32,000 nucleotides of DNA, taken from Haloplanus pelagicus (GTDB lineage Archaea; Halobacteriota; Halobacteria; Halobacteriales; Haloferacaceae). A program made the translations under genes and the position numbers. The DNA lies in assembly GCF_023703795.1 (NCBI RefSeq), contig NZ_CP098519.1:92229-124228 (forward strand). Direction: 5' to 3'. Under the pieces are notes generated by a model. The model was not told where the DNA came from. It saw only the letters and a list, made by a program, of their open reading frames with translations, and searched no databases. Position 1 is the first letter of the stretch, and every line of letters begins with the position of its first letter. Positions 4,311-25,996 of the stretch are shown piece by piece.

Positions 4311-4399
4311 TTCGGCACGTGTTCTGGATCTAGCGGGATTCCGAGACAGAAGAGTTCGAGGGGGGGAACGCTTTTATTCGGCCTCTATTATCCGCATGT

Positions 4400-10453: not shown

Positions 10454-10482
10454 TGTGAACTGTAGTGGGAAGAGTGGCCGGC

Positions 10483-10839
10483 CTACGCGTCGGTGAACTC
10501 AGCAAGCGAGTGGTTGGGACTGCTGTGGTTCCACTTTCCGATCTGAATGAGATCGAAGGTCTCGATGTCGTCTTCAACAGCGGCGTCAAGTGTGGCAGTA
10601 ATGTCGGCAGAGAGACTGTCGACACGGATCGCCGTCACTGGGTGACCTCCAAGCTTGTAGCCGGTTGCGAGACTCGTGGGAGAGACGACGATTACCGCAC
10701 CACCATCGACAGCGTCGAGGGCGAGTTGGGCATCCCGATGCTGGAGGACGGTCGCATCCAGCTCATCGACAGGGAAGAGACAGACTGCTGTCCCGTACTC
10801 AATGCTCGCCCCCGCTGTGTAGAAATGCCCTATAGACAT
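10483..10839 (-). CDS. Hypothetical protein
   Basis: ORF MSIGHFYTAGASIEYGTAVCLFPVDELDATVLQHRDAQLALDAV...; acidic composition is more plausible than the overlapping + frame. Likely co-transcribed with 10184..10453. Confidence 0.6.
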   Translation of the reverse strand: MSIGHFYTAGASIEYGTAVCLFPVDELDATVLQHRDAQLALDAVDGGAVIVVSPTSLATGYKLGGHPVTAIRVDSLSADITATLDAAVEDDIETFDLIQIGKWNHSSPNHSLAEFTDA

Positions 10840-10953
10840 AATCAGCTGCTACTATATGCCCTATGGACATTAATATTGCGGCTCCAATCAATACCGAGTC
10901 ATGCGACTCGGCCAGCCCGTAAGTTGAATATCCAGCCCGTTTCAGCGCTGTGT

Positions 10954-13155: not shown

Positions 13156-13845
13156 CTACGAGAACTCCGGCCGTTCCGCGTACGCAATCGGATCGCGTGA
13201 CTCGGCATTCCGGAATGCTTCGAGTCGGAACGCACACGCATCACACGTTCCGCACGCCGGTTCCTCATCCCGGTAACACGACCACGTCATGTCGTATGGC
13301 ACACCGAGCTCCAACCCCCGCTCGGCGATCTCCGTTTTCGACCATTCGACGAACGGCGCTTTCAACTCGATCTGTGTCTCCGGTTTTGTCCCGACATCGA
13401 TCACGTTCTGAAAAGCGTCGAAAAACGCCGGGCGACAGTCAGGGTATCCGGAGAAATCCTCCGAATGTGCGCCGATAAACAGCGCCTCTGAATCAGTCGC
13501 CTCCGCGTACGACGTCGCCATCGACAACAAATTCGCATTCCGGAAGGGGACGTACGATGTCGGAATGTCGTCACTCTCAAGATCTGCGTCGGCCACGTCC
13601 ATCTCCTCGTCGGTCAAACTCGACGCACCGATCTGGGAGAGATGTCCCGTTTCGATATGGAGGAAGTCAGCCGCATCAACTTCCTCCGCGAGCGCTTTCG
13701 CACACTCGTACTCCTTGTCTTCGGTGCGCTGACCGTACGACGTATGGAGGAAGTACGGCTCGTAGCCCTGCACGATCGCCTCGTAGACAGCCGTCGCACT
13801 ATCCATCCCACCAGACACCAGAATCACCGCGCTTTTGTTGCTCAT
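13156..13845 (-). CDS. queC: 7-cyano-7-deazaguanine (preQ0) synthase
   Basis: AVILVSGGMDSATAVYEA (PP-loop), SYGQRT, VPFRNANLLSMATSYAEA, SCYRDEEPACGTCDACAFRLEAF (zinc cysteines). Confidence 0.96.
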   Translation of the reverse strand: MSNKSAVILVSGGMDSATAVYEAIVQGYEPYFLHTSYGQRTEDKEYECAKALAEEVDAADFLHIETGHLSQIGASSLTDEEMDVADADLESDDIPTSYVPFRNANLLSMATSYAEATDSEALFIGAHSEDFSGYPDCRPAFFDAFQNVIDVGTKPETQIELKAPFVEWSKTEIAERGLELGVPYDMTWSCYRDEEPACGTCDACAFRLEAFRNAESRDPIAYAERPEFS

Positions 13846-13939: not shown

Positions 13940-14716
13940 TCATGTCCCCGGTGCGTCGTTCCATAGGTCCACGTGGAGTCGCGGCGTGTACCGGTAGCCG
14001 TACTCCATCGCCAGCTCGGCGACCTCGCTTCGCGTCCCGTCGAGTTGCTCGCGCGTCATGCCCTCCGGCATCAACAACACGTCATCATCGGCGACAGTCG
14101 TCGCCGTCGCTTTTTGTACTCGGTCAACCAGGTCCGTAATCTCCGGGAGGTCCGTCTCGTCGGTCACGACGAACTTGAGTTGCGTCTCGTACGTATCGAC
14201 CATCTGGGACAACGCATCCATGTCAATTCGATTCTGTTCGTGTTTCTCCTCCCACTCGCCCTCCCCCTTCGGGTCACGATCGGGTGTTGGCGTGCTGCTC
14301 GCCAGCTTCGGGCTGATACTCGCTAAATCGATCGGCGCGTCCCGGTAGATTGTCCCGTTCGTTTCCACCGTCGTGTGATAGCCGTCTGCGGCGAGTCGTT
14401 CGAGGAGTTCGACTGACTCCTCATGGATGAGTGGCTCCCCACCTGTGAGGACGACGTGGCCAGCCTGTTCGTGGGACTGTACTTCTTCCACGATCGAGTC
14501 GATGTCGCGCCACGCCCCGGTCGGCTCCCACGAGGTATGGTACGAATCACAGAACCAACACCGCAGATTACATCCAGAGGTCCGTACGAAGACGGAGGGG
14601 ACGCCTGCGAGCGTTCCCTCGCCCTGTAACGAGTAGAACACCTCGTTGATCGGGAGGCCCTCACCAGTCGCGTCAGCGTCTGTTGCGGGCTCTTCGATAT
14701 CACTAGCAACCGGCAT
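13940..14716 (-). CDS. queE: 7-carboxy-7-deazaguanine synthase (radical SAM)
   Basis: NEVFYSLQGEGTLAGVPSVFVRTSGCNLRCWFCDSYHTSWEP, HVVLTGGEPLIH, TTVETNGT, ISPKL. Confidence 0.96.
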   Translation of the reverse strand: MPVASDIEEPATDADATGEGLPINEVFYSLQGEGTLAGVPSVFVRTSGCNLRCWFCDSYHTSWEPTGAWRDIDSIVEEVQSHEQAGHVVLTGGEPLIHEESVELLERLAADGYHTTVETNGTIYRDAPIDLASISPKLASSTPTPDRDPKGEGEWEEKHEQNRIDMDALSQMVDTYETQLKFVVTDETDLPEITDLVDRVQKATATTVADDDVLLMPEGMTREQLDGTRSEVAELAMEYGYRYTPRLHVDLWNDAPGT

Positions 14717-15177
14717 CAGTACGACGCACAGAGCTCCTTGGTCTCGCTCACCGACACCGACACATCCGTCACGGTATCCGGGAACTCATCGAGCATGCGT
14801 TGTTCGAGGAGGAGGCTCATCACCTCCGCCGTCGGCGGGTGTTCCAACACCACGAGCGCGTCGCCGTCACCAGACGCCTCGAACGCATCTACAAGCGGGT
14901 CGCCCTCCTCAACCAGGAACCGGTGATCCCACGCGTCGATGACGTCCGTGACGTCGCCTTTGTCGACGACCCAGCCCTCCTCGGTGAGTTCACCGGTCAC
15001 TTCGACAGTGATCTCGTAGTTGTGGCCGTGTGGCCGCGAACACTTCCCGTCGTGATGTAGGATTCGATGACCCGAACTGATCCGGATTGGATTGTCGCCT
15101 CCGATTTTGAGTGTCCGCTGGCCTGCCTCGACCAAGTTTTCAGCCGTAGAATCATCTTGTGATATGCTTTGAGACAT
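14716..15177 (-). CDS. queD: 6-carboxy-tetrahydropterin synthase
   Basis: FSSGHRI-like ISSGHRILHHDGKCSRPHGHNYEITVEVTGEL, GWVVDKGDVTDVIDAWDHRFLVEEGDPL, HPPTAEVMS. Overlaps queE start (TGATG). Confidence 0.94.
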   Translation of the reverse strand: MSQSISQDDSTAENLVEAGQRTLKIGGDNPIRISSGHRILHHDGKCSRPHGHNYEITVEVTGELTEEGWVVDKGDVTDVIDAWDHRFLVEEGDPLVDAFEASGDGDALVVLEHPPTAEVMSLLLEQRMLDEFPDTVTDVSVSVSETKELCASY

Positions 15178-15259: not shown

Positions 15260-15424
15260 ATGAACACTTATTCACAAAGTATGGCACCTTTCACACGGAT
15301 TTTCGCCGGATTGGTGAGAGACACTTTTCCGCCAAATGTTGAGGAGCTCTCGACCGATCAAGAAGATGAACAACACCATCCAAGATTACAAATATACACT
15401 ACGATAAGAATAGACAATGAGTAA
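15260..15424 (+). CDS. Candidate small protein (54 aa)
   Basis: Open frame below the 60-aa cutoff of the track: MNTYSQSMAPFTRIFAGLVRDTFPPNVEELSTDQEDEQHHPRLQIYTTIRIDNE*. Its stop overlaps the next ORF's ATG (aATGAGTAA at 15416-15424). Confidence 0.4.
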   Translation: MNTYSQSMAPFTRIFAGLVRDTFPPNVEELSTDQEDEQHHPRLQIYTTIRIDNE

Positions 15425-15788
15425 ACGAGAAGATCAACGAGAGAGTAGCTTGTCCTTGAGTGAAATAGACTCCACGCGAGCCCCTGATGAAAAGCAAATG
15501 GACGGCAAATCTGGAGAGATGCTGTATCAGCTCAAATTTCACAAAAGGCAGGGAGCAACCACCGAGGTGGGAAAAGTAACTGAAATCGGATCGTTAGAGG
15601 ATTCGCCTCCCGTTGATCTTCAGGCACTTCAGACAGATACCTATACTCACTATGCTATCTTCCGTTTGAAAGATCGATCAACGACACTGATTGTACAAGA
15701 CGAATCTGGAAATACGCACAAAGCGCTTTCACTTGGCAAAGATACTGTGAAAGTACCTTACAAAGTGAGTATTACCATCCAATCTTAG
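15417..15788 (+). CDS. Hypothetical protein at island start
   Basis: ORF MSKREDQRESSLSLSEIDSTRAPDEKQMDGKSGEMLYQLKFHKRQGATTEVGKVTEIGS...; no recognised family. Confidence 0.6.
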   Translation: MSKREDQRESSLSLSEIDSTRAPDEKQMDGKSGEMLYQLKFHKRQGATTEVGKVTEIGSLEDSPPVDLQALQTDTYTHYAIFRLKDRSTTLIVQDESGNTHKALSLGKDTVKVPYKVSITIQS

Positions 15789-16137: not shown

Positions 16138-17205
16138 ATGCGACGATACCAATTCGATGACGTCGGCGAGATAGAATTCGTGGCGTCTGTCGCGCAAATC
16201 AATCGTTCTCAGCTTATCGATATCGTGGAGGACCTCGAGGAATACAACCTTGTAGAGTATGCTCTTGGTCGGATGATGTTTTGTCCGCTTACCTCCTCAG
16301 AGATTGCGGTTGATTATCTTGAATCGCTTTCATCGTCCTACGATCTCACATTCGCTTGTGATTCGGGAGGGTATGAGTCTCAAGTCAACGATGAATATAC
16401 GATGAAAGACATCTATACATTTGATCGAGAATACTACTTGTCGACAGACTGGCCTGACGAATTAGTTCTGCCCGACCAAGTGCCCGTAGAAGGAGACGAC
16501 GAGGCAACGATAGAGCAGAAGGTCCAGGACACAATCTCTCTCTCTCGAATGCTCTATAATGAACTACCAAGCGACAAGCAAGAGCGCGCAGTGCCAGTAA
16601 TCCAGGGGCATACTAAACAACAAATCGTTGAGTGTCTCGATGTTTATAGGAAGTTTGACAAAATAAATAAAATTGGGTTTGGGAGCTTTGGTACCGGAGG
16701 AGTAAATGGGGGTGTGAATTATTTGAATGAGGAGAATCTCGAACTACTACAATTCGTTGTGAAAGAGGCTCGGAAGTATGATCTAGACGTCCATGCATTC
16801 GGAATTGGCGGGCCAACTTCAATTCCTATCCTATATCAGTGTGGTGTTGATACGTTCGATTCGACTGGCTGGATACGATCTGGGGGTTATGGAAATATCT
16901 TTTTCCCATTTAAAAGTCGGCTTAATGTTACGCACCTTCGCAATCGGTCCGGTCCTACAGTCTTCCGAGAGGAATTGAGGGAAATAAAAGAGGAGACCGG
17001 ACATGAATGTCCGTACTGTCGGTCATTCGAATCCCTGCAAAACAGTCGTCAACATCGAATTTTACATAATCTTATTGTCATGCGTGAGATGACAGACATG
17101 ATCCTAGAATATTCGCTCGAAGAACTCATCGAGATGATGAATCCTAACTCAAAGTATACCGGCTACCTAAAGAAATTTACATCAACCGAGTCGGTCCGGA
17201 ACTGA
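16138..17205 (+). CDS. dpdA: DpdA-like TGT-fold transglycosylase (predicted 7-deazaguanine insertion into DNA)
   Basis: TGT-type motifs: TFACDSGGYES (D75, cf. TDSGGFQ), VPVIQGHT (cf. IVQG), FGIGGPTSIPILYQCGVDTFDSTGWIRSGGYGNIFFPF (D241, cf. GxDMFDCVxPTRxARxG.LF), and HECPYC...H zinc-like region. Only 355 aa, with no PUA or ArcTGT C-terminal domains. Confidence 0.85.
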   Translation: MRRYQFDDVGEIEFVASVAQINRSQLIDIVEDLEEYNLVEYALGRMMFCPLTSSEIAVDYLESLSSSYDLTFACDSGGYESQVNDEYTMKDIYTFDREYYLSTDWPDELVLPDQVPVEGDDEATIEQKVQDTISLSRMLYNELPSDKQERAVPVIQGHTKQQIVECLDVYRKFDKINKIGFGSFGTGGVNGGVNYLNEENLELLQFVVKEARKYDLDVHAFGIGGPTSIPILYQCGVDTFDSTGWIRSGGYGNIFFPFKSRLNVTHLRNRSGPTVFREELREIKEETGHECPYCRSFESLQNSRQHRILHNLIVMREMTDMILEYSLEELIEMMNPNSKYTGYLKKFTSTESVRN

Positions 17206-17252
17206 TTATCTAGAGGTAGATATTTGTTTGAGGTGTCTAATTGAATGACGAG

Positions 17253-18101
17253 ATGAGTCATTACACTTCAAAATTCCATATTAGTGACCCTGGCCCACAG
17301 GAGTTGTATGAATATTTGGATACTGTGGAGGCAACATCGCCATCATCGAATCCAGAACTTCTTGAATCGGCCAGAGACCTTGGCCACTCAATCGGGAGCA
17401 AGGAGAAATCTACAGAAGGTTCGGTGCTTGGCCGGCTCGGGATTGTAGATCCCACCGATCAATTTCAGTTTACTGAACTCGGTGACTCCCTGGTCGATAT
17501 CATGTATAGGGATCGGAACCTGTTTAATACGGTACTTCATTTTCTTTATTACTCTGCTTTTGAGAGATACCCAGACAGATATGTATTTATGTCGTATACA
17601 TACAGAGAGATGACCAACTATCTCTATGATAATTCCCCGTTTAGCACTTTTCGGGGAGAGCGTGGAACAATTGTTGGTGAAGTCACCGAATTAGCAGAAC
17701 AGAGTCCAGATGTCGACGTTTCCAAGACACGAAGCGGCGTGTCACTTAGTACAAAGAGTTTCAATAATTATCTGCAGTATCTTGCGGAACTATCCCCCGA
17801 GGTGCTAGTGGAGGATGACTCTGGGAGTCCCGGATTCGAGCGACGTGCGTTCTGCCCTCCGGAACTTATGATCTTGGCCGTGGATCATATCTATAAGCAA
17901 AACGAGACAGATTATGAGACGCTCCTCAGAGTGACAGATGATACCAAAGTTCGAATTCAACAGATGTGCCTCCTCTCTGATGATGGGTTCGATGAGGTAA
18001 CCGAGTACGCTGAACAGGCGTATCCATTCTTCTCAAAGAAACATGACTTTGGTCTCAACCTTCGATTAGACCGAGAAGTAACTCTTGATGACCTCCAATA
18101 G
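17253..18101 (+). CDS. DUF4007-like / winged-helix protein, possible defence regulator or adaptor
   Basis: MSHYTSKFHISDPGPQELYEYLDTVEATSPSS...VLGRLGIVDPTDQFQFTELGDSLVDIMYRDRNLFNTVLHFLYYSAFE, similar in layout to DUF4007 proteins. Track ORF starts at TTG 17241; ATG 17253 is preferred. Confidence 0.55.
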   Translation: MSHYTSKFHISDPGPQELYEYLDTVEATSPSSNPELLESARDLGHSIGSKEKSTEGSVLGRLGIVDPTDQFQFTELGDSLVDIMYRDRNLFNTVLHFLYYSAFERYPDRYVFMSYTYREMTNYLYDNSPFSTFRGERGTIVGEVTELAEQSPDVDVSKTRSGVSLSTKSFNNYLQYLAELSPEVLVEDDSGSPGFERRAFCPPELMILAVDHIYKQNETDYETLLRVTDDTKVRIQQMCLLSDDGFDEVTEYAEQAYPFFSKKHDFGLNLRLDREVTLDDLQ

Positions 18102-18102
18102 C

Positions 18103-18504
18103 ATGTCGTCACCTGTTGCAGAACTACTACAGAAATCTAATGAGGCAAAGCGGCGACTACAAGATGACCTCCTGACCGACGATCAGATCGCAGTACGCTC
18201 GAAACTTTTGGAATTTGCTGATCAGGACGGCGGTCATTACAACTTGTATGGAGCAAGAGGTGTTGGCAAGACCACGCTGGCTAAATATATGATGGTTCAT
18301 CAGAACGGGTGGGGATACGCTCCATGGCTACCCGTGAAAAATGCCTCAACACGAGTCCTCTTCGTCGATAATGTACCGGCAACCAGGACAGCGTCACGCA
18401 GAGCGCGTGAAATTATTGGATTTGACACTCCAGACACGGTGATTTCAGTTTCGCGCAAACCGGTTCCGGAAACAAAAGCGCGTGTTACACTCTCTGACAA
18501 CTGA
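18103..18504 (+). CDS. Minimal P-loop/AAA-like ATPase (about 133 aa)
   Basis: HYNLYGARGVGKTTLAKYMMVHQ (Walker A), STRVLFVDNVPATR (degenerate Walker B), TVISVSRKPVPET. ATG 18103 lies 1 nt after the preceding stop. Confidence 0.6.
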   Translation: MSSPVAELLQKSNEAKRRLQDDLLTDDQIAVRSKLLEFADQDGGHYNLYGARGVGKTTLAKYMMVHQNGWGYAPWLPVKNASTRVLFVDNVPATRTASRRAREIIGFDTPDTVISVSRKPVPETKARVTLSDN

Positions 18505-18591: not shown

Positions 18592-21500
18592 ATGGGACAG
18601 GCGAATGCGCAAAATATCGAGTCCTCTCTTCGAGAACTCAATGACACGCTGAACAAAGATGAGGGGATTGTCAATACATCAAGCGCTCACCGATTTTTAG
18701 ACCAGCCGAGCGATATCGAGACCGAATACATTGAGTACGCTCGGACTCACCTGATCCAGCCAGACATTCAACGGTTTATCGATTCGTTGACTGGAGCCCT
18801 CGAAGATGAAGATCTGAATAAATCTGTTCCTGGATACATTGTGGGCCCCTACGGGTTTGGGAAGACCAGTACAACGGGAAAAGTTTGGTACCTTCTTGAC
18901 CAGGAAGACAACTACATTACTACCCCTCCGATCTATTTCGATGAACTACAGTCAATTGTCGACGCCGTGTACGGATGGATGCGGTTCCGCTTGAGGGACC
19001 GAGAAGAGCATCTAGAAACCCTCGAACAGCGGTACCAGGCCAAAGTGACCAGTAACGTCGAAGATATTGTTGACCAAACTGGATTCGATGACAAAGATCA
19101 AACCCGGGAAGAGTTCGAGCGACTAATCGAGTCGGGATCGATTGATATCGAATTCTCGGTCCAACACGTTCTGGATTTCCTTTCTGAATGTAATCAGATC
19201 GCAAAAGACGCTGGGTACAAAGGCCTCGTCGTTATTGCCGACGAACTTCAGCAGTTCATATCCAGTCACTCGTCTGACAAAGAAGCATACTCTAAGCTAC
19301 GTGATATTGCAAAAAGCACAGCCCTCGGCCTGAACGAAGGCGACGGCTTGGGTCTTCTGTTCACCATGGACGATGGTCTCCACGGAGACCTGGACGTGAA
19401 TGCAGACGATGTTCTTGCGCGGTTAGCAGAACAGAACGTTCAACTCAACTTAGCGAATGTTTACAACCGAGATTTCCCGACTAAGCTGTGGGAAAGTCTG
19501 GCTGAAACTTACGGTTTCAAGGACAGACGCTACGAAGTAATTACCGAGGATACGCTAGACGCAATTGGTCAGATCTGTGAACGTGGACCTCCTCTTTCAA
19601 ACGGCCCTCGTTCAGTTGTGGACATTCTCACGATCGCTATCGAGCACTACCTCTCTGAGTCGGAGGCGTTTGATGCTCTTGACCTCGCCAATGCGTACTA
19701 TAATGGCGTTGTCCGATTCAAAGGAGACCACATCAAAACCGCAATCACAGAGGCGATTAATTCTGATCAAATAAGTACCCCCGATCGTGAGAATTTCATC
19801 AAGCTGTGTGGGGTATTCCCTCGAGGAGTCTCAGATGACCTACTGAAGCAGTATGGGGTTCACGAGGCGAAAGAACAGGTCAAAGGAGAACTTCACGGAC
19901 AGCTCATCATCACACACGAGGAAGGGCGCACGCTCAAACGTCTTGAGCGGGAAGGAGAGGATCGTGGGATCAAAGACGAACTGTTCACACAGTTCTATCG
20001 GGATTATGACACCACAGACATCTACGATTCGAACGCTTCTGAGACGTTCCGAGAATTTGTTGTTTCGGAAGAACTCTTCCCCGCTGTTCGAGGAAAGAGT
20101 CTGAGCAGCTGGGTTACCGAACACGCCTTTGAACCCGAAACTGGAGGAGTGTACGCGGCAGTCTTTCGTGGGTCATTCAACGGGCAAGAGTACCCTGAGC
20201 GGCTTATTGAAATCCGAATGGGCACGGATGCTACATCAGTTAAATCGCCCGATGAAGGCACAGATACTGACCTCACGATTGGCTTTGCCGTTAACATGGA
20301 GAAGCAGACTGAAGTCACCCCTCACATCGAACGGGTATCTACTGACGAGGTTCTTCTACATCTAGACTTAGCTGATTCTTTCGACAGCCTCCCGAGCAAT
20401 ATCGTTATGTTGGAAGATTACATGAGTCCGGAAGATGTCAGCCCCCATCTGCTGCTCTCCTTACATCACTTCATGCGTAATTGGGAGGAGAACCAAACAG
20501 TCAATCCCAACCAGGAGACACAGTTGGAATATATCCGTGACCAGTTAGTCACGCAAAGCATTCAGAAGGCGTTTGGCCCTCCCCTGAATGGGGACGACTT
20601 CCTCGATGAATCAGGGAGTAGTCGCCGGACCGTTGATCCGTCAAAGGTCGTCGAGAAAATCTTCAACCGTGTAATCGAAGAGGTCTATCCTGATTATAAA
20701 ACTCTCTTCATCTCGGACAATTACCAGACCTTCTTAGATGACTATGAATCTCTCCTAGTAGGAAACGATCCGAATATCCGGATCTCACAAAAGCGGGGTA
20801 ATACCCCAATTGAAGGGACAAAAAGCGATATTTCCAACGCGATCGGGGTATCTAGTAACTCGACAGCAAAAACACGTCTTGATAAACAATTTGAAGATCT
20901 CGTTGACACTGAAGTCTGGCAGGGCAAGGATGCCAGGGTTCGATTGACCCTTCATCCCCTTGAGGAACTTCTTAAAGACCATATCGAGGAGCAAGAGAAG
21001 GAAACTGTCGCCGTCAGTGAGTTATATGATGTAGCCGGGGAGAAAGGGTACCGGCAGGAAGAAGTTGACTGGGCAGTCCGCCTCCTTGTTGGTCGAGATT
21101 TCATCAAGCATGATCAAAACGATGAAACGGTCGAACTGAGCGACATTGCTATCGACATCGACCAAGTCAAATCTCGGCTGGAATCACTCCGAAACACGGC
21201 TGCGGAGCTCAACGAAATCTCGAACGAGTGGAGTGAGTATGACTCGATCACTAATGAGTTGAATCGCCTTGAGGAGGAACTCAGCGGAACGACGAATGAC
21301 GACATTGAGATACTCGATGATCTTAACGCCGAGCTAGAAGAGGTAGATTCGCAGATCTCGACGCAGATCAAGGCCACAAGTGCGACCCTTCGTGAACGTG
21401 CCCGAGGAACAATAGACAGACTCAAAGGACTTTCATCCAGCAACAAGCCTCGCGATCTGAAAAAGACTGTCGAGAAGTCTAATGTTCCGTTCGGCCTCCA

Positions 21501-22683
21501 TATCAAAGACATCGAGACTGAACTATCATCCAACTTTACAAAAGCAACTACAGAGGCCGACTCTGCCCGCTCAGATCTTGATACAGATCTCGAGATTGCA
21601 TCTGGCACGGCAGCTCTGAGTGAGATTAATACTCTACAGGACTCAATTGAGGAGGCGAAAGAAATCGCTGAGCAGGTTGATGAAGAATTAGAGGATATCA
21701 AAGAGGACGCGGCTGACTACGCGGATTGGTGTCGACTTGCAAATGACATGGACGCTGCTCGTTCGGATATTGTTCAGTATGCAAATACTCATCCTGACAA
21801 CAGTGCCGCGATGTCAATCAGGGATGAGCTTACCGCTCTGATGAGTGAGATTCAGACTGAGTTCCAGAAGGGCAGTGACCACGATGACTTCCCTCAGGCA
21901 CTGCGGAATGCCGAAATGTATCGGCAGCAGTTCGAAGACCTCAAAGACCAATTCGAGGAGATAACTCAGGGGGACGAAGAGAACTTCAATTACCGGAAGA
22001 ATGTGCTTGAGAACACGCTGAAGATTGGTACTTCCGGCCACCCAAGTATCAGACAAAACTTGAGTCCTAACAATGCTGAGAAGTCACGTAATGACCTCAA
22101 GCATGAGTTCCGCCGCCAGCTGGTTGAGAACAGCGATGGAATCGAAGATGTAAAGTCCGATATCAAATCGATTGAGACCAGCATTGAGTATGCTGAGTTG
22201 TTGAATCAGGTTCCGGATGAAGCTGACCCGACTCCGGCTGATATCCGCGATCAGATAGTCGATTTCGAATCTACTATTGAAGATATCCATCAGGCTGTCA
22301 GTCAAATGGATATCACTTCGGCTATCCGACTTCCGACTGAGGGTGGCCGTTCGAACTCGTTCCCCAACACCGATGAGAAATTGAGTCTCTCGATTGACAA
22401 CCGCGAGGTGAACGTCGGCGAACGAATCGACGAAATCCGAGATTCAATTGAGGCACTCCATCAAGACGTTCGTGAGTGGCGACAGGTTACTGAGACTCCC
22501 CCAGAAGATCTTGAATATATTATGGATGAACTGGACTATCGGGATCAGTCTGACTTGGAGAGCGTCCTAATTTCAGTCTCTGAAAAGAAAGGTGACACCG
22601 ACGTTGCAGAGTTCTTTGCCGATCTGGAAACCTTATTCGAGGGGAACCACATCACGGTCTCGATCAAAAGCGAACATAGGTAA
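18592..22683 (+). CDS. BrxC/PglY-like large ATPase
   Basis: 1363 aa. VPGYIVGPYGFGKTSTTGKVWYLL (Walker A, aa 85-92), GYKGLVVIADELQQFISSH (Walker B), long C-terminal coiled-coil-like region. Directly followed by a PglZ-domain gene. Confidence 0.75.
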   Translation: MGQANAQNIESSLRELNDTLNKDEGIVNTSSAHRFLDQPSDIETEYIEYARTHLIQPDIQRFIDSLTGALEDEDLNKSVPGYIVGPYGFGKTSTTGKVWYLLDQEDNYITTPPIYFDELQSIVDAVYGWMRFRLRDREEHLETLEQRYQAKVTSNVEDIVDQTGFDDKDQTREEFERLIESGSIDIEFSVQHVLDFLSECNQIAKDAGYKGLVVIADELQQFISSHSSDKEAYSKLRDIAKSTALGLNEGDGLGLLFTMDDGLHGDLDVNADDVLARLAEQNVQLNLANVYNRDFPTKLWESLAETYGFKDRRYEVITEDTLDAIGQICERGPPLSNGPRSVVDILTIAIEHYLSESEAFDALDLANAYYNGVVRFKGDHIKTAITEAINSDQISTPDRENFIKLCGVFPRGVSDDLLKQYGVHEAKEQVKGELHGQLIITHEEGRTLKRLEREGEDRGIKDELFTQFYRDYDTTDIYDSNASETFREFVVSEELFPAVRGKSLSSWVTEHAFEPETGGVYAAVFRGSFNGQEYPERLIEIRMGTDATSVKSPDEGTDTDLTIGFAVNMEKQTEVTPHIERVSTDEVLLHLDLADSFDSLPSNIVMLEDYMSPEDVSPHLLLSLHHFMRNWEENQTVNPNQETQLEYIRDQLVTQSIQKAFGPPLNGDDFLDESGSSRRTVDPSKVVEKIFNRVIEEVYPDYKTLFISDNYQTFLDDYESLLVGNDPNIRISQKRGNTPIEGTKSDISNAIGVSSNSTAKTRLDKQFEDLVDTEVWQGKDARVRLTLHPLEELLKDHIEEQEKETVAVSELYDVAGEKGYRQEEVDWAVRLLVGRDFIKHDQNDETVELSDIAIDIDQVKSRLESLRNTAAELNEISNEWSEYDSITNELNRLEEELSGTTNDDIEILDDLNAELEEVDSQISTQIKATSATLRERARGTIDRLKGLSSSNKPRDLKKTVEKSNVPFGLHIKDIETELSSNFTKATTEADSARSDLDTDLEIASGTAALSEINTLQDSIEEAKEIAEQVDEELEDIKEDAADYADWCRLANDMDAARSDIVQYANTHPDNSAAMSIRDELTALMSEIQTEFQKGSDHDDFPQALRNAEMYRQQFEDLKDQFEEITQGDEENFNYRKNVLENTLKIGTSGHPSIRQNLSPNNAEKSRNDLKHEFRRQLVENSDGIEDVKSDIKSIETSIEYAELLNQVPDEADPTPADIRDQIVDFESTIEDIHQAVSQMDITSAIRLPTEGGRSNSFPNTDEKLSLSIDNREVNVGERIDEIRDSIEALHQDVREWRQVTETPPEDLEYIMDELDYRDQSDLESVLISVSEKKGDTDVAEFFADLETLFEGNHITVSIKSEHR

Positions 22684-22688
22684 CTCCC

Positions 22689-23864
22689 GTGTCTACCCGC
22701 ACTATTGAGTCACTGTCTGCCTTGGCTGAAGCGACACGTGACGGACCAGTTGTCGCAAATATCGGAGGGCTCGAGTCTCGAGTACTACAAAACAGGCATG
22801 GTATCGATACCCTTGAATCGCTTGAAGAGTTTTACCGCCTCTATGAGTCTCCGACTAATTTGTTTGAAACCGATGTGATCATTCGGGATCAGGGATCTAA
22901 GCCGTCCTTTGATAGGTCACTTACGCTCTACAACCCACCTTCGATAGAACAGGTCGAATACACTGGCACCGTGTACGATAGGTCGCTTAATGGACTCATA
23001 TCAGAAGGGTCGATTTCTTGGGACGATGTGGAGAGCACAACCACTTGTCAATCAGAGGTCGGCGATCTCATCACGGAGGCGGCATCTGATGTTGATGTTA
23101 TTGCGCTGGTTATTGTTGATGGCCTCTCCTATCAGGATTGGACAGACTCAGGCTATGAGGCAGAGCCAATCTATGTTGATTGCCCAACACGTACAGATTG
23201 TGGCTACCCAAATGTCGTCCGTGGGGCATCCAACGGGAAGCATCTCCAATATCGGCTTTTCAACGAGGGATATAAAACCCGGAAGGCGTTCACCTACTGG
23301 GAACGTAAGGATAACGACCTTTCTGACGAATTGCACGATGGTTTCTCCAAGAACGACGTAATCGGAAACATCCAGGACTTTGCTGATTCCATCTCATATT
23401 TACAGACCCACGATTGGTATCGACCGAAGACCTATCTCCAGTTCACTCTTACCGGTCCTGAACGTGTAGCGCACCGAATGAAGGAGGATCCTGTGATCCA
23501 GAGTGAGGTAGACGCAGTTCATCAAAAGTTGTCTGACCTCCGTGAAACAATCAGCAAAGAAACGGACTCATTCCGTATTTTCGCTGTTGCCGACCATGGT
23601 ATTCTCTGGCGGATGGATACTGACTTTGAGGCACTTGATGAAAAGTGGAAGCAGGGAATTCGTCGGGACTATGAAGACCCTCCAGCCAGCGCATCTGTTC
23701 CTGAGTCCGTTGGTGAAACATCCTTCTGGGCTGGTCAGCAATATCTCCGGCTTTATCACCCACACATATTCAATAACCTACGAAGTAACGAACCAGGAGT
23801 ACACGGTGGCTTTTCGTACCAAGAGTCCATTGTTCCGTTAATTGAATACGAGGATCTGAAATGA
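22689..23864 (+). CDS. pglZ: PglZ-domain protein (alkaline phosphatase superfamily, compact)
   Basis: GTG start 22689. VIALVIVDGLSYQDW, PTRTDCGYPNVVRGASNGK, FRIFAVADHGILW, EPGVHGGFSYQESIVPLIEYE, in PglZ order. 391 aa. Confidence 0.82.
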   Translation: MSTRTIESLSALAEATRDGPVVANIGGLESRVLQNRHGIDTLESLEEFYRLYESPTNLFETDVIIRDQGSKPSFDRSLTLYNPPSIEQVEYTGTVYDRSLNGLISEGSISWDDVESTTTCQSEVGDLITEAASDVDVIALVIVDGLSYQDWTDSGYEAEPIYVDCPTRTDCGYPNVVRGASNGKHLQYRLFNEGYKTRKAFTYWERKDNDLSDELHDGFSKNDVIGNIQDFADSISYLQTHDWYRPKTYLQFTLTGPERVAHRMKEDPVIQSEVDAVHQKLSDLRETISKETDSFRIFAVADHGILWRMDTDFEALDEKWKQGIRRDYEDPPASASVPESVGETSFWAGQQYLRLYHPHIFNNLRSNEPGVHGGFSYQESIVPLIEYEDLK

Positions 23865-25030
23865 CACAAGAAATATTCATTGGCGAGGAACGTGATAGCG
23901 GCGAGGAAACGCTTATTGACACTTCGAAGGCCCGTGCTCTCTTCGTTTGTGGGAAGCGAGGGACCGGCAAGAGCTATTCGTTGGGAAACGTCATCGAGGA
24001 GGTCAACCGAGAGATGCCCGACACAGTTCCCCTTGTTGTTGACCCGATGGGGATTTACTGGACGATGGCCGAACCAAATGACGAACAGCAAGATCTCCTC
24101 TGGGATTGGGGAATGCAGCCGACTGGGTTTGACACTACACTCCTCGTTCCGGGCGATCCAACAGAACGTTACGGACCTGAAGTCTACGATGAGATGATGC
24201 GCCGCGGTATCGAAATCGAGAGCCTGCGTCTCAATCCTTCTGACATTTCTCCCGATGGGTGGTGTGAACTCTTCGATCTCAATATAAACAAACCGATGGG
24301 TATTGCGTTGTACCGAGCTGTCCGTTCGCTAAACGAATCTCAAGACTTCTTTGACCTGGACGAGCTCATCGAAGAAGTTGAATACGACGAAAAAGCAAAC
24401 GAGCGGACTGTGGACGCTCTTGTCAATCGTCTGGAGATGGCACACGAATGGGGCATCTTTAGTGACTCATATACAGACATCTGGAACAATCTCGATCCTT
24501 CTCGGGTTAATATTCTCGACGTGAGTGTTCTCGACCCAGGGAAGTACGGTCTTCGTAATTTGGTCGTCTACGTACTGACAAAAAAAATATTTGATGAGCG
24601 ATCGAAAGCGCGCCGTCGAGAGGAACTACAGTTGTCCTCTGATATTCCGAAGGTCTGGCTATTCATCGATGAAGCACACAATTTTGCACCGTCCGGGTCG
24701 TCCTCGCTTGCGAAGGATATCTTGATTCGATGGATCAAGGAGGGACGTCAGCCGGGGCTGTCGCTCGGCATAGCAACTCAACAGCCAAGTGCTGTATCCT
24801 CAGATGTCGTGTCCCAAATGGACTTGATTTTCTGTCACAAAATCACTACTCGCACTGATATTCAGTCGCTGAACGAACTAAGTCAGGAGTACATGGGGAG
24901 TCAGCTGAAGACCTATATCAAGAAAATCGATAAAGTTGGTGAAGCAGTCTGCGTCGATGACGAAAGAGAAGTAGTAACGCAGGTTCAAATGCGACCACGT
25001 ATGAGTCAGCATGGTGGCAGCGGGGCATGA
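23861..25030 (+). CDS. HerA-like P-loop ATPase/translocase
   Basis: ARALFVCGKRGTGKSYSLGNVIEEV (Walker A), VPLVVDPMGIYWTM, VWLFIDEAHNFAPSGSSSLAKDILIRWIKEGRQPGLSLGIATQQPSAVSSDVVSQMDLIFCHKI. ATGA overlap with the pglZ stop. Confidence 0.88.
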   Translation: MTQEIFIGEERDSGEETLIDTSKARALFVCGKRGTGKSYSLGNVIEEVNREMPDTVPLVVDPMGIYWTMAEPNDEQQDLLWDWGMQPTGFDTTLLVPGDPTERYGPEVYDEMMRRGIEIESLRLNPSDISPDGWCELFDLNINKPMGIALYRAVRSLNESQDFFDLDELIEEVEYDEKANERTVDALVNRLEMAHEWGIFSDSYTDIWNNLDPSRVNILDVSVLDPGKYGLRNLVVYVLTKKIFDERSKARRREELQLSSDIPKVWLFIDEAHNFAPSGSSSLAKDILIRWIKEGRQPGLSLGIATQQPSAVSSDVVSQMDLIFCHKITTRTDIQSLNELSQEYMGSQLKTYIKKIDKVGEAVCVDDEREVVTQVQMRPRMSQHGGSGA

Positions 25031-25563
25031 CAACAAATATTCAACGATCAAACAATTCTACGGCAGTGCCAACTACAGTCGACCTCCAGATCTCTGACTT
25101 CCTTGTCAAATCAATTAGTAAAAGTGAGAGATCGGTATCAGAATTGAATTCTTTTTTTAATTCTAATCAGATCAAATCTGAACTCCATTGGTTCACTCAT
25201 CGGGACACCCTGGAACGTGCAGCGTCACGGCCTGACCGACGGTTGTTTTATTTTGCACCCCACGATGCGATCATCGGCGGACTCATGATTTGGTGTGAAT
25301 CGAGAGTGCTTGACCAAACGGAAGCACAAATACGCCTTGTTGCTGTTTCACCAGATTATCGAGGCTATGGAATCGGACAGTACTTAGTGAAAAAGGCTAT
25401 TGAATTTGCAAAAGAGCATAATAAGGAATCAATAATCGCGGACGTTGCAGCCGAAGCTCCCGCAGTACAATTCTGGGAGGCTATCGGGTTTCACAAAGTT
25501 GATTCGTACTTTACAAATGGTGGTCGAGAAATGTATCAGATGGAACGGCACCTGAGTAAGTGA
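25027..25563 (+). CDS. GNAT-family acyltransferase
   Basis: IRLVAVSPDYRGYGIGQYLVKKAIEFAKEHNKESIIADVAAEAPAVQFWEAIGFHKVDSYF. ATGA overlap with the HerA-like gene. Confidence 0.88.
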   Translation: MTTNIQRSNNSTAVPTTVDLQISDFLVKSISKSERSVSELNSFFNSNQIKSELHWFTHRDTLERAASRPDRRLFYFAPHDAIIGGLMIWCESRVLDQTEAQIRLVAVSPDYRGYGIGQYLVKKAIEFAKEHNKESIIADVAAEAPAVQFWEAIGFHKVDSYFTNGGREMYQMERHLSK

Positions 25564-25597: not shown

Positions 25598-25996
25598 ATG
25601 TCACAGTCCTCTTCCAGTTCTGAACGAAGTTCCTTACTGGACTCTTTTGAAGCCCCGGAGACGTCAGTCGCTCAGGTGTATACGTTTGAAACAGACGAGG
25701 TAACAGCACTCTGTCCGTTCGACTTCGGAGGGCCTGATTACTATGAGTTCACTCTAAAATACGTTCCTTCCGAAGACTGTGTCGAGAGCAAGAGCCTGAA
25801 AAAGTTCCTTGAATCGTATCGTGATGTTGAGATCACTGCCGAAGGACTTGGTGCCGAGATGTATGAAGAAATCACCGAGACAATATCTCCTAAAAAAATG
25901 TACATCCGGCTCGAACAGGCACGGCGAGGTGGGATTGAAGAAACTGTTGAGTTCGGTGATATAGAATTGAAGTCCGCAAGAGAGCAGGTACAATAA
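25598..25996 (+). CDS. QueF/QueF-L-like T-fold enzyme acting on preQ0 (reductase or amidinotransferase)
   Basis: EVTALCPFDFGGPDYYEFTLKYVPSEDCVESKSLKKFLESYRD...RLEQARRGGI aligns with QueF (EFTSLCP..GQPDFA..ISYIPD..CVESKSLKLYLFSFR...RGGI). C39 and D47 match the catalytic Cys/Asp. Confidence 0.85.
   Translation: MSQSSSSSERSSLLDSFEAPETSVAQVYTFETDEVTALCPFDFGGPDYYEFTLKYVPSEDCVESKSLKKFLESYRDVEITAEGLGAEMYEEITETISPKKMYIRLEQARRGGIEETVEFGDIELKSAREQVQ

What the first reader, a model, noticed from the sequence alone, without database searches (positions are those of the whole stretch)
16138..17205. Archaeal DpdA-like protein: short TGT fold with both catalytic aspartates and no PUA domain
Archaeal tRNA-guanine transglycosylase (ArcTGT) is longer and carries C-terminal C1/C2/PUA domains. 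This protein stops after the TIM-barrel-like region at 355 aa, keeps D75 (CDSGG, codon 16360-16362) and D241 (FDSTG, codon 16858-16860), and replaces the VMPTRNARNG-type tract with TGWIRSGGYGNIF. Its zinc region reads H-x-C-P-Y-C...H rather than C-x-C-x2-C...H. These features fit a DNA-specific branch of the family.
Basis: partly seen in the sequence, partly recalled or inferred. Interest (0 to 1): 0.85.

Follow-up and report, generated by a model that had tools for sequence, protein, structure and literature searches.

The report
Defence-island guanine transglycosylase, probably acting on DNA
This gene encodes a stripped-down relative of the enzymes that swap guanine for 7-deazaguanine in tRNA; it sits in a BREX-like anti-virus gene island of a salt-loving archaeon next to the genes that make the replacement base, so it most likely marks the cell's own DNA, although nobody has yet tested any member of this family.

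Summary
ORF 16138-17205 (+) encodes a 355-aa TGT-fold protein (Pfam PF01702 above threshold; AF2 pLDDT 91). It has D75, D241, a third invariant Asp (D113) and a His-Cys-Cys-His zinc site, and no PUA or C-terminal domains.

It is not ArcTGT, bacterial TGT, bDpdA, DpdA4 or Cap10. It belongs to a small separate clade, about equally distant from all of them.

Context is the main result. The gene opens a tightly packed nine-gene, low-GC operon: TGT, DUF4007-like, P-loop NTPase, BrxC/DUF6079-like, PglZ-like, HerA, GNAT, QueF-like. This matches the "BREX-Related Capture" (BRC) system described computationally in NAR 2026 (PMC12839542), which already proposes TGT/GNAT as a DpdA-like self-marking module.

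New here:
- In Halobacteria the island always carries a reductase-type QueF (6/6 loci).
- It abuts the queD-queE-queC operon in 4/6 loci.
- GNAT accompanies or is fused to the TGT in most loci, and the pair occurs in one virus.

Best reading: a DNA-guanine transglycosylase that inserts a 7-deazaguanine, probably preQ1-derived and possibly N-acetylated. The DNA target is inferred, not shown. The gene is a new member of a described but untested kind.

The parts
16138..17205 (+). TGT-fold transglycosylase, 355 aa (the finding). Key residues: D75, D113 and D241; Zn ligands H289, C291, C294 and H310.
   Evidence: Pfam PF01702, E = 1.4e-10. Invariant residues in 58 homologues. AF2 pLDDT 91. Foldseek finds TGTs at E ~1e-11, TM 0.55-0.67.
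17241..18101 (+). 286-aa protein that follows the TGT gene in nearly all related loci. The BRC paper calls this component DUF4007/BrxA-like.
   Evidence: A homologue lies downstream of the TGT in 64 of 69 genome loci. There is no Pfam hit even at E <= 1. AF2 pLDDT is 79. The best global PDB match is SspB (a DUF4007 protein), TMq 0.42-0.48, which is not significant.
18085..18504 (+). Small P-loop NTPase, 139 aa, pI 9.5. This is the STAND/BrxB-like component.
   Evidence: AAA_25 at 26.8 bits and weak nSTAND3/NB-ARC hits. Homologues occur in 44 loci.
18592..22683 (+). 1363-aa BrxC/DUF6079-like ATPase.
   Evidence: Pfam BrxC_BrxD: 27.3 bits, above the gathering score of 22.2. A homologue is present in 58 of 69 loci.
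22689..23864 (+). 391-aa PglZ-like protein.
   Evidence: PADLOC PglZ, E = 3.9e-6. Homologues carry faint PF08665 marks.
23861..25030 (+). HerA/FtsK-type ATPase, 389 aa.
   Evidence: Pfam DUF87, E = 4e-12. PADLOC HerA 1e-19, mad8 1e-18, DndH 3e-7.
25027..25563 (+). GNAT N-acetyltransferase, 178 aa, with an intact acetyl-CoA motif (R-G-Y-G-I-G).
   Evidence: Pfam Acetyltransf_1, E = 2e-14. Sequence. GNAT is present in 56 of 74 loci and is fused N-terminally to the TGT in P0099-P0109.
25598..25996 (+). QueF-like protein, 132 aa, of the unimodular preQ0-reductase type.
   Evidence: Pfam QueF, E = 6e-17. NCBIfam QueF-II: 81.9 bits against a cutoff of 86.9. Cys39, Asp47, the NADPH motif ESKSLKKF and Glu82 are conserved; His is replaced by Ala81.
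15417..15788 (+). 123-aa protein of unknown function that travels with the haloarchaeal islands.
   Evidence: Homologues lie next to the system in L002 and L071. It matches no family.
14716..15177 (-). QueD (6-carboxytetrahydropterin synthase).
   Evidence: Pfam PTPS, E = 5e-21. TIGR03367: 73.8 bits.
13940..14716 (-). QueE (radical-SAM 7-carboxy-7-deazaguanine synthase).
   Evidence: Radical_SAM, E = 1e-17. QueE models at 1e-30 to 1e-17, below their cutoffs. 93% identical to the QueE of Halorubrum sp. SY-15.
13156..13845 (-). QueC (preQ0 synthase).
   Evidence: Pfam QueC, E = 4e-72. TIGR00364: 185 bits, above the cutoff of 150.

Best explanation
The protein is the base-exchange enzyme of a BREX-like "BRC" defence island in a haloarchaeon.

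Proposed mechanism:
1. QueD, QueE and QueC, encoded next door, make preQ0.
2. The island's own QueF reduces preQ0 to preQ1. Haloarchaea otherwise have no use for preQ1.
3. The TGT-fold enzyme removes a guanine from double-stranded chromosomal DNA. It does this through a covalent Asp241-deoxyribose intermediate, with Asp75 as general acid/base and Asp113 reading the base.
4. The enzyme then inserts the 7-deazaguanine.
5. The GNAT, which is always nearby and is fused to the TGT in some bacteria, acetylates the product, most plausibly on the aminomethyl group of preQ1.
6. The resulting mark takes the place of PglX methylation in BREX. It lets the BrxC/PglZ/HerA machinery spare self DNA.
7. The DUF4007-like protein and the small NTPase encoded directly downstream probably help the enzyme reach bases in duplex DNA, as DpdB does for DpdA.

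What is shown: the fold, the conserved catalytic residues, the gene neighbourhood and its conservation.

What is inferred: the DNA target, the identity of the base, the acetylation, and the self-marking role.
For: Enzyme:
- The TGT fold and Pfam membership are established.
- All three active-site Asp residues and the four Zn ligands are invariant in 58 homologues. These Asp residues are the ones shown by mutagenesis to be essential in DpdA and the TGTs (paper PMC10164549).

Operon:
- Eight of the nine genes, from the TGT gene to the QueF gene, are separated by -17 to +87 nt.
- Their GC content is 44-50%, against 53-61% in the flanks.
- None of the nine genes matches a methyltransferase family in Pfam, so TGT/GNAT is the only candidate modification module.

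Conserved synteny:
- The order TGT, DUF4007-like, BrxC-like, with or without STAND, PglZ and HerA, recurs in 69 genome loci from Halobacteria, Methanococcales, Chloroflexota, Poribacteria, Armatimonadota and others.
- It matches the seven-component BRC system of PMC12839542.

Substrate supply:
- QueF lies next to the system in 6 of 6 Halobacteria loci. queD/E(/C) is adjacent in 4 of 6, in three different arrangements.
- The queDEC proteins of the window are 84-93% identical to those of Halorubrum sp. SY-15, whereas the island proteins are only 27-64% identical. Both islands abut the 5' end of queD.
- QueF keeps the Cys, Asp, Glu and NADPH motif of the reductases and is closer to B. subtilis QueF than to QueF-L.

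GNAT linkage:
- GNAT is found in 56 of 74 loci, and TGT-GNAT fusions exist.

Virus:
- A GNAT plus TGT pair sits beside the clamp, helicase and DNA polymerase genes of Thermocrinis Great Boiling Spring virus.
Against: - No member of this clade has been tested, and nothing here shows DNA rather than RNA or protein as the target.
- Sequence and structure are no closer to proven DNA enzymes than to tRNA enzymes. The family profile scores DpdA 7ui4 at E = 0.097 but ArcTGT at E = 1e-4. Phage DpdA models align at TM 0.4-0.6, about the same as bacterial TGT.
- The window's QueF has Ala where B. subtilis QueF has His96, so its activity is uncertain.
- queDEC has host-like GC and may simply be the housekeeping archaeosine operon beside an insertion hot spot.
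- Methanococcales loci keep the GNAT but have no QueF. This refuted my first idea that GNAT occurs only where preQ1 is available, and it weakens the acetyl-preQ1 step.
- The protein is acidic (pI 4.6), as expected in a halophile, so charge gives no hint of DNA binding.
Confidence: 0.6

Rival explanations
1. It is a restriction-side enzyme rather than a marking enzyme. On this reading it attacks invading DNA. It either excises guanine or virus-borne 7-deazaguanines and leaves abasic sites or covalent adducts, or it overwrites the virus's own modification.
For: - Haloarchaeal viruses such as HVTV-1 carry dPreQ1 in about 30% of their G positions (PMC10516641).
- Defence glycosylases that target 7-deazaguanine DNA exist (bioRxiv 10.1101/2025.10.29.685425).
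- The island carries no obvious nuclease other than PglZ.
Against: - The constant linkage to QueF and the frequent linkage to queDEC point to a supply of base for insertion, not to simple excision.
- The known anti-deazaguanine glycosylases are not of the TGT fold.
- The virus-encoded GNAT/TGT pair argues for a protective modification.
Confidence: 0.1
2. It works on a protein-linked or free nucleobase, as Cap10 does in type IV CBASS. On this reading it binds or transfers a 7-deazaguanine attached to a partner protein of the system, and the GNAT acts on protein.
For: - Cap10 shows that a TGT fold with an intact pocket can be rewired for protein deazaguanylation (bioRxiv 10.1101/2025.04.06.647259).
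- There is weak sequence similarity to Cap10 9ntn (E = 0.16-0.17) and to PADLOC CBASS-type TGT models (E = 1.6e-5).
- The nearest GNAT relatives by HMM include RimI, a protein N-acetyltransferase.
Against: - There is no CD-NTase and no Cap9-type QueC. The QueC here passes the true QueC equivalog threshold, 185 bits against 150.
- Bacterial loci have no QueC-like neighbour at all.
- Cap10 similarity is no better than similarity to any other TGT.
Confidence: 0.08
3. It is an RNA enzyme: a second tRNA-guanine transglycosylase that modifies host or viral tRNA or other RNA, for example as an infection-triggered switch.
For: - All experimentally characterised cellular archaeal TGTs act on tRNA.
- The family profile's best PDB hit is ArcTGT, at E = 1e-4. 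The next-but-one sequence shell consists of short ArcTGT-like proteins.
Against: - It lacks the C1/C2/PUA tRNA-binding domains.
- It scores 23 bits against a cutoff of 350 on the TgtA model.
- It occurs only inside BRC-type islands with DNA translocase and BREX-like parts.
- The clade is rare and patchy: 102 representatives at E <= 1e-30 among 1.84 billion. That is unlike a housekeeping tRNA enzyme.
Confidence: 0.07
4. It is a true DNA transglycosylase, but the base is plain preQ0, as for all characterised DpdAs. In that case QueF acts afterwards on the DNA, or is unrelated, and the GNAT has a regulatory or protein target.
For: - All DpdAs characterised so far insert preQ0 (PMC10516641).
- Methanococcales loci lack QueF.
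- The window's QueF lacks the His found in B. subtilis QueF.
Against: - QueF is present in 6 of 6 Halobacteria loci. It keeps the NADPH motif typical of free-base reductases.
- TGT-GNAT fusions suggest consecutive chemistry on one substrate.
Confidence: 0.15

Closest known systems
TGT component of the BREX-Related Capture (BRC) system (computational description, NAR 2026, PMC12839542)
   Same: The gene set and order are the same: TGT, DUF4007-like, STAND NTPase, DUF6079/BrxC-like, PglZ, HerA, GNAT. Occasional GNAT-TGT fusions also occur. The paper's own lists include haloarchaeal genomes, for example Halogeometricum sp. S1BR25-6, whose TGT is my hit P0086.
   Different: In what I could search (main text and the six supplementary files held as text), the paper does not mention QueF, QueC/D/E, preQ1 or archaeosine genes. 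It says GNAT and TGT occur only in a subset of BRC loci. It assumes dPreQ0. No experiment exists for any member.
Bacterial Dpd system: DpdA (DNA-guanine transglycosylase, PDB 7ui4) with DpdB and DpdC
   Same: Both are TGT-fold enzymes without tRNA-binding extras and without the N-terminal beta-lid. The three Asp residues and a Zn site are conserved. Both lie in a restriction-modification-like defence island and depend on the preQ0 pathway.
   Different: - NF041059 scores 23.5 bits against a cutoff of 200.
- No gene of the island matches a ParB-like (DpdB-type) or DUF328 (DpdC-type) family in Pfam.
- The restriction partners are BREX-like plus HerA rather than DpdD-K.
- The first Zn ligand is His, not Cys.
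- A GNAT and a QueF accompany the enzyme.
Viral DpdA pathways that yield dPreQ1 and its N-substituted forms (HVTV-1 DpdA4 + QueF; DpdM methyl-, DpdN formyl-preQ1)
   Same: QueF and a transglycosylase are co-encoded in a haloarchaeal setting. There is precedent for modifying the aminomethyl nitrogen of dPreQ1 (PMC10516641).
   Different: - This protein is not DpdA4: there is no DUF6610 hit.
- It has no detectable similarity to phage DpdA1-3 at E <= 0.01.
- It is cellular and defensive rather than viral and counter-defensive.
- The tailoring enzyme would be a GNAT (acetyl), which has not been reported.
Archaeosine tRNA-guanine transglycosylase (ArcTGT/TgtA, PDB 1iq8)
   Same: It is the best PDB sequence match of the family profile (E = 1e-4). 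The catalytic-domain motifs DSGG, P(L)D and FDS, and the Zn knuckle, are shared.
   Different: 355 aa against 582 aa. There are no C1/C2/PUA domains. It scores 23 bits against a cutoff of 350. Its context is a defence island.
Cap10 of type IV CBASS (PDB 9ntn)
   Same: A TGT-fold protein recruited into an anti-virus system that uses 7-deazaguanine chemistry.
   Different: Cap10 binds a deazaguanylated CD-NTase N-terminus and works with the QueC-like Cap9. Neither partner is present here, and the similarity is marginal (E = 0.16).

Membership tests
TGT superfamily (Pfam PF01702) | Score above the Pfam gathering threshold | tested here: met
   41.2 bits against 26.3, E = 1.4e-10, residues 111-320.
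TGT superfamily (Pfam PF01702) | (beta/alpha)8 barrel with three active-site Asp residues (general acid/base, base recognition, nucleophile) | tested here: met
   The AF2 model has eight strands and pLDDT 91. D75, D113 and D241 are invariant. D241 aligns to Zm D280.
TGT superfamily (Pfam PF01702) | Structural Zn site C-x-C-x2-C...H | tested here: met
   The site is present as H289-x-C291-x2-C294...H310 and is invariant. The first ligand is His instead of the Cys seen in outgroups.
ArcTGT / TgtA (TIGR00432) | Equivalog score of at least 350 bits | tested here: not met
   23.3 bits.
ArcTGT / TgtA (TIGR00432) | C-terminal C1, C2 and PUA domains | tested here: not met
   The protein ends at residue 355. 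It has no PUA hit and forms a single barrel plus Zn subdomain.
Bacterial TGT (TIGR00430) | Equivalog score of at least 306 bits | tested here: not met
   No hit at E <= 1. Foldseek gives TM 0.55-0.67 and 14% identity.
bDpdA (NCBIfam NF041059) | Equivalog score of at least 200 bits | tested here: not met
   23.5 bits. PADLOC DpdA E = 1.5e-5, 22 bits. Family profile against 7ui4: E = 0.097.
bDpdA (NCBIfam NF041059) | Partner genes dpdB (ParB-like ATPase) and dpdC (DUF328) in the cluster | tested here: not met
   No gene of the island matches a ParB-like or DUF328 family in Pfam. The BRC paper likewise reports none.
bDpdA (NCBIfam NF041059) | Guanine/preQ0 exchange in dsDNA | not testable with these tools
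   Needs an in vitro exchange assay or LC-MS of DNA.
DpdA4 (DUF6610, PF20314; archaeal viruses) | Match to PF20314 | tested here: not met
   The Pfam scan at E <= 1 lists only PF01702 and a chance Zn-ribbon hit. The HCTV-1 protein aligns structurally only at E = 2e-3.
Phage DpdA1-3 | Detectable sequence similarity to phage DpdA proteins | tested here: not met
   tblastn against 50,697 phage records at E <= 0.01 finds only the GNAT/TGT of Thermocrinis GBS virus. The phiST DpdA3 model aligns at TM 0.46.
Cap10 (type IV CBASS) | Operon with a CD-NTase and the QueC-like Cap9 | tested here: not met
   Neither is in the island. The QueC next door is a true QueC equivalog.
BRC (BREX-Related Capture) system | HerA/FtsK translocase (universal component) | tested here: met
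   23861-25030: DUF87 E = 4e-12; PADLOC HerA E = 1e-19.
BRC (BREX-Related Capture) system | DUF6079 / BrxC-like ATPase | tested here: met
   18592-22683: BrxC_BrxD 27.3 bits, above the gathering score of 22.2. No DUF6079 hit was listed in that Pfam scan.
BRC (BREX-Related Capture) system | PglZ | tested here: met
   22689-23864: PADLOC PglZ E = 3.9e-6. No Pfam hit at E <= 0.01. Homologues carry faint PF08665 marks.
BRC (BREX-Related Capture) system | STAND NTPase (BrxB counterpart) | tested here: inconclusive
   18085-18504 is a P-loop protein. AAA_25 scores 26.8 against 27; nSTAND3 E = 0.026. It is conserved in this position in 44 loci.
BRC (BREX-Related Capture) system | DUF4007 (BrxA counterpart) | tested here: inconclusive
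   17241-18101 has no Pfam hit at E <= 1. Its best global fold match is SspB (DUF4007), TMq 0.42-0.48, but with E ~1. Its position after the TGT is conserved in 64 of 69 loci.
BRC (BREX-Related Capture) system | GNAT and TGT (subset of loci) | tested here: met
   Both are present. Fusions exist in homologues.

The most novel reading that the evidence does not exclude
Haloarchaeal chromosomes that carry this island contain a DNA base not yet described: 7-(acetamidomethyl)-7-deazaguanine, i.e. N-acetyl-preQ1. The predicted deoxynucleoside [M+H]+ is about 338.15. The proposed route is QueF to the TGT-fold enzyme to the GNAT. The base would serve as the self-mark of a methyltransferase-free BREX-like system. 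If true, it would be the first 7-deazaguanine modification of cellular (non-viral) archaeal DNA, and the first acetylated one.
Probability: 0.15. Interest if true: 0.85.

Novelty: new member of a known kind. Interest (0 to 1): 0.55.

Why it matters
7-Deazaguanines in cellular DNA are known experimentally only from the bacterial Dpd system. In archaea they are known only from viruses.

This locus gives a compact, testable case: nine island genes plus the adjacent queDEC operon. In it, a BREX-like machine seems to have replaced DNA methylation with base exchange, and the chemistry can be predicted from the neighbours (QueF, then a GNAT).

Testing it would do four things:
- Show whether BREX-type immunity can read a non-methyl mark.
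- Define the substrate range of a fifth or sixth lineage of DNA-directed TGTs.
- Possibly add a new natural DNA base.
- Explain why haloarchaea, which make archaeosine and not queuosine, carry a preQ0 reductase.

The gene family itself has already been pointed out in a 2026 comparative-genomics paper. The value added here is therefore the biosynthetic linkage and the sharper prediction, not the discovery of the family.

Tried and rejected
- **GNAT tied to preQ1 availability.** I proposed that GNAT occurs only where QueF/preQ1 is available. An iterated profile search found GNAT directly upstream of the TGT in all three Methanococcales loci, which have no QueF. I rejected the idea.
- **Island boundaries.** I looked for att-type direct repeats or inverted repeats. 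Only short chance matches turned up. No tRNA gene lies in the window.
- **Expression signals.** The promoter/terminator scan uses bacterial consensus patterns. Counts matched the shuffles, so it is uninformative for an archaeon.
- **Source organism.** The exact protein is not in the contig collection. The GTDB representative scan did not return the window itself. The best clue is the 84-93% identity of QueC/E/D to Halorubrum sp. SY-15.
- **Virus search.** The IMG/VR scan found only the one Thermocrinis virus again. Virus-borne members are therefore rare.
- **Fold of the 286-aa neighbour.** No significant PDB match. The SspB resemblance is only suggestive.
- **Phylogeny.** I did not build a formal tree with DpdA1-4, QTRT2 and the others. 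Reference sequences were not retrievable, and identities of about 14% would not resolve it. HMM cut-offs and shell analysis were used instead.
- **Scripts.** The first iterative-profile script timed out on the long proteins. I re-ran it on the short ones only.
Full report
**1. The observation.**

Window 16138-17205 (+) is a clean 355-codon ORF.
- C74-D75-S-G-G, with D75 at 16360-16362.
- F240-D241-S-T-G, with D241 at 16858-16860.
- TGWIRSGGYGNIF at residues 243-255.
- H289-E-C291-P-Y-C294, followed by H310.

The protein passes the Pfam threshold for the TGT family: PF01702, 41.2 bits against 26.3, E = 1.4e-10. A phmmer alignment to Z. mobilis TGT places FDSTG on FDCVL, so D241 is the counterpart of the nucleophile D280. 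It places HECPYC on CHCAVC.

In an alignment of 58 homologues the following are invariant: D75, S76, G77, G78, L111-P112-D113, G157, GFGSF, H219, D241, W245, H289, C291, C294, H310 and N311. D113 is the third active-site aspartate, the base-recognition Asp equivalent to DpdA D130.

An AlphaFold2 model built on that alignment is confident: pLDDT 91, pTM 0.91. It is one (beta/alpha)8 barrel that begins directly at strand 1, followed by a Zn subdomain and C-terminal helices. There is no PUA or other extra domain.

**2. Which TGT is it?**

It is not a member of any curated subfamily:
- TgtA/ArcTGT: 23.3 bits against a cutoff of 350.
- DpdA NF041059: 23.5 bits against a cutoff of 200.
- Bacterial Tgt: no hit.
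- DpdA4/DUF6610: no hit.

tblastn against 50,697 phage genomes finds no phage DpdA. It finds only one GNAT/TGT gene, in Thermocrinis Great Boiling Spring virus.

A family profile searched against PDB sequences gives:

| Target | E-value |
|---|---|
| ArcTGT 1iq8 | 1e-4 |
| DpdA 7ui4 | 0.097 |
| Bacterial TGT | 0.13 |
| Cap10 9ntn | 0.17 |

These are all marginal.

Foldseek places the model at TM 0.55-0.67 and 14% identity from bacterial and human TGT. It sits at TM 0.4-0.6 from viral DpdA-like models. Only the Thermocrinis virus protein is close, at TMt 0.90.

An exhaustive HMM search of 1.84 billion cluster representatives finds 102 proteins at E <= 1e-30 and 647 at E <= 1e-3. This is a rare clade. 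The next sequence shell is unannotated. The shell beyond it consists of short ArcTGT-like proteins. Aligning these shows that His289 as the first Zn ligand is specific to this clade; the outgroups have Cys.

That test is not triggered. Equally, the protein is not inside DpdA.

**3. Context.**

GC content drops from 53-61% to 44-50% between about 15200 and 26500. Inside this stretch lie nine genes on the + strand. The eight from the TGT gene onward are separated by -17 to +87 nt.

| Coordinates | Product | Evidence |
|---|---|---|
| 15417-15788 | 123-aa unknown | |
| 16138-17205 | TGT | |
| 17241-18101 | 286-aa protein | no Pfam hit |
| 18085-18504 | 139-aa P-loop NTPase | |
| 18592-22683 | 1363-aa BrxC-like ATPase | Pfam BrxC_BrxD above threshold |
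| 22689-23864 | PglZ-like protein | PADLOC 3.9e-6 |
| 23861-25030 | HerA ATPase | |
| 25027-25563 | GNAT acetyltransferase | |
| 25598-25996 | QueF-like protein | |

Immediately upstream, on the other strand, lie QueD, QueE and QueC. None of the nine genes matches a methyltransferase family in Pfam.

This is the seven-component "BREX-Related Capture" (BRC) system. It was described purely by comparative genomics in Nucleic Acids Res 2026 (PMC12839542). That paper already proposes that TGT and GNAT mark host DNA in a DpdA-like way. Its supplementary lists include haloarchaeal genomes whose TGT I also recovered.

**4. Conservation of the context.**

A scan of one genome per GTDB species returned 69 loci encoding relatives. 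They come from Halobacteria, Methanococcales, many Chloroflexota, Poribacteria, Armatimonadota, Acidobacteriota and others.

Searching their ORFs with the window's proteins shows the following:
- The 286-aa protein's homologue follows the TGT in 64 of 69 loci.
- The BrxC-like protein is present in 58 of 69 loci.
- PglZ and HerA are present in the full-length form.

An iterated profile finds GNAT in 56 of 74 loci. It lies either just upstream of the TGT or after HerA. In P0099-P0109 it is fused to the TGT's N-terminus. Most loci without GNAT are truncated contigs. TGT and GNAT therefore form a functional pair more consistently than the paper states.

The pair also occurs on its own in a virus. 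There it sits next to the sliding clamp, helicase, nuclease and DNA polymerase genes. That is where one expects a DNA-modifying module.

**5. Link to 7-deazaguanine synthesis (not in the paper's text or in the supplements I could search).**

QueF and queD/E/C homologues appear only in the Halobacteria loci:
- QueF is present in 6 of 6: the window, L001, L002, L070, L071 and L076.
- queD/E(/C) is directly adjacent in 4 of 6.

Three different arrangements occur:
- queC-queE-queD divergent from the TGT (window, L071).
- GNAT-queD-queE-queC (L002).
- GNAT-QueF-queD-queE (L070).

Against Halorubrum sp. SY-15 (L002), the window's QueC, QueE and QueD are 92%, 93% and 84% identical. The island proteins are only 27-64% identical, with the TGT at 43%. 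Yet both islands abut the 5' end of queD, in opposite orientations.

By composition queDEC looks host-like (58-60% GC), while QueF is island-like. So queDEC is probably the resident archaeosine operon. The site next to it is either a hot spot or a selected location for these islands. QueF, in contrast, is brought in by the island.

This makes sense from established knowledge. Archaea insert preQ0 into tRNA and do not make queuosine, so they have no housekeeping QueF. Bacteria have one. This background is restated in PMC10516641.

The QueF here is of the reductase type:
- It scores 81.9 bits on the preQ1 synthase model, against a cutoff of 86.9.
- It matches B. subtilis QueF better than QueF-L.
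- It keeps Cys39, Asp47, Glu82 and the NADPH motif E-S-K-S-L-K-K-F.
- One caveat: the His equivalent to B. subtilis H96 is Ala81 in the window's clade.

**6. Mechanism proposed.**

Shown:
- An intact TGT catalytic centre.
- Co-operonic GNAT and QueF.
- An adjacent preQ0 pathway.
- BREX-like and HerA partners.
- No methyltransferase.

Inferred:
- preQ0 is made by QueDEC and reduced to preQ1 by QueF.
- The TGT-fold enzyme exchanges guanine in duplex DNA for the 7-deazaguanine, using the double-displacement chemistry proven for DpdA and the TGTs.
- The GNAT has an intact acetyl-CoA motif. Its nearest HMM relatives acetylate primary amines. It is proposed to acetylate the aminomethyl group.
- The mark plays the role of BREX methylation.

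Methyl and formyl derivatives of dPreQ1 are known in phages. I found no report of an acetyl derivative.

The always-adjacent 286-aa protein and the small NTPase are the best candidates for the DNA-opening helper that DpdB provides to DpdA. The weak global resemblance of the 286-aa model to SspB is compatible with this but not significant. SspB is the DUF4007 protein of the Ssp phosphorothioation system.

**7. Weak points and rivals.**
- Nothing here demonstrates DNA as the target.
- Similarity to proven DNA enzymes is no higher than to tRNA enzymes.
- Methanococcales loci keep the GNAT without QueF. This refuted my simple GNAT-needs-preQ1 correlation and lowers confidence in the acetyl-preQ1 step.
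- queDEC adjacency could be a hot-spot effect.

Rivals considered:
- A preQ0-only DNA enzyme (0.15).
- A restriction-side glycosylase-like role (0.10; compare).
- A Cap10-like protein-directed role (0.08; compare).
- A tRNA/RNA role (0.07).

**8. Verdict.**

It is right on fold, catalytic residues and exclusion from ArcTGT and bacterial TGT. It is plausible on DNA. It is wrong if read as membership of DpdA.

The gene is a new member of a clade and system already described computationally in 2026, so the finding is not categorically new. Its interest lies in the untested chemistry that the neighbours predict, and in being a compact archaeal test case.

Noticed in passing
L024:7624-9993, L032:7797-10010, L041:7658-9935: In all three Methanococcales loci the GNAT-TGT pair is preceded, on the same strand and with overlapping ORFs, by two genes. 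One is a 2-hydroxyacyl-CoA dehydratase D-component homologue (PF06050). The other is a BcrAD/BadFG-type activator ATPase (PF01869). They might supply an unusual acyl-CoA for the GNAT, or replace QueF. Neither idea is explained or tested.
   Followed up: partly
L003:2765-5269, L064:6896-9796, L077:4788-7334 and about 30 other bacterial loci: A 750-970-aa protein with sigma-70 region 2 and region 4 domains sits directly upstream of the TGT in 34 bacterial loci. It is not among the seven BRC components listed in the paper. It is absent from the archaeal loci.
   Followed up: partly
L006, L008 and about 10-14 further loci: A short form of the system has GNAT-TGT-DUF4007-like-BrxC-like but no STAND, PglZ or HerA. 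Instead it has a divergent ~1800-aa DEAD/DEAH helicase plus two unknown proteins.
   Followed up: partly
L074 (Haloarcula sinaiiensis plasmid pHsi139, NZ_CP073372.1 117123-135452), and hits H4-H9: Seven haloarchaeal plasmids carry a different TGT-like gene, about 32% identical over residues 212-332. In pHsi139 it lies beside QueE, QueD, an EVE-domain protein, a wHTH regulator and a "BREX system ATP-binding" protein. This looks like a second, smaller deazaguanine-linked island type.
   Followed up: partly
L073/L075 (Thermocrinis Great Boiling Spring virus BK013347.1, locus 3953-5249): This is the only virus found with this TGT clade. An acetyltransferase ORF and an "acetyltransferase/TGT" ORF lie next to the clamp, helicase, PD-(D/E)XK nuclease and PolA genes. 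The TGT match comes in two pieces and runs past the annotated CDS end, so the gene may be frameshifted or mis-annotated.
   Followed up: partly
L076:8461-8847 (-) and 9576-10004 (+): One haloarchaeal chromosome (CP101824.1) has two QueF paralogues beside the TGT. They represent two clades: one with the canonical His ("EIYHE") and one with Ala ("EITAE", as in the window). The same island also holds GmrSD and ApeA-like genes.
   Followed up: partly
window 15417-15788 (+): This 123-aa protein matches no family, but homologues lie next to the system in L002 (8866-9231, -) and L071 (19942, -). It may be a regulator or an extra component specific to the haloarchaeal islands.
   Followed up: partly
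window 3037-4074 (-): A Mrr-type restriction endonuclease (PF04471, E = 1e-22) lies in a separate low-GC patch (40% GC at 3001-4000). This is a second small defence insertion about 12 kb from the BRC island.
   Followed up: no
window 26569-29154 (+) and 29151-32000 (+, runs off the end): A pair of large helicase-nuclease proteins (UvrD_C + PD-(D/E)XK, and UvrD helicase + PD-(D/E)XK), AddAB-like, lies directly downstream of the island in host-type GC. In pHsi139 a PD-(D/E)XK family protein also flanks the QueE/QueD genes.
   Followed up: no
window 10465-11775 (+) and 11827-12807 (+): A 436-aa protein with weak CBS and HEPN-like hits is followed by an ADP-ribosylglycohydrolase (PF03747, E = 3e-77). 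This could be another conflict-related pair just left of queC.
   Followed up: no
window 5265-6293 (-), 289-807 (+), 841-1497 (-): An Orc1/Cdc6 paralogue, a TFIIE-alpha/wHTH-like protein and an RNase H-fold protein. These fit an archaeal, variable genomic region.
   Followed up: no
P0176 and neighbouring hits: The nearest outgroup shell of TGT-like proteins (E = 1e-48 to 1e-30 against the family profile) matches no NCBIfam model. At least one of them (P0176) has Asn where the nucleophile Asp should be ("SFNSST"). It may be an inactive paralogue family.
   Followed up: no
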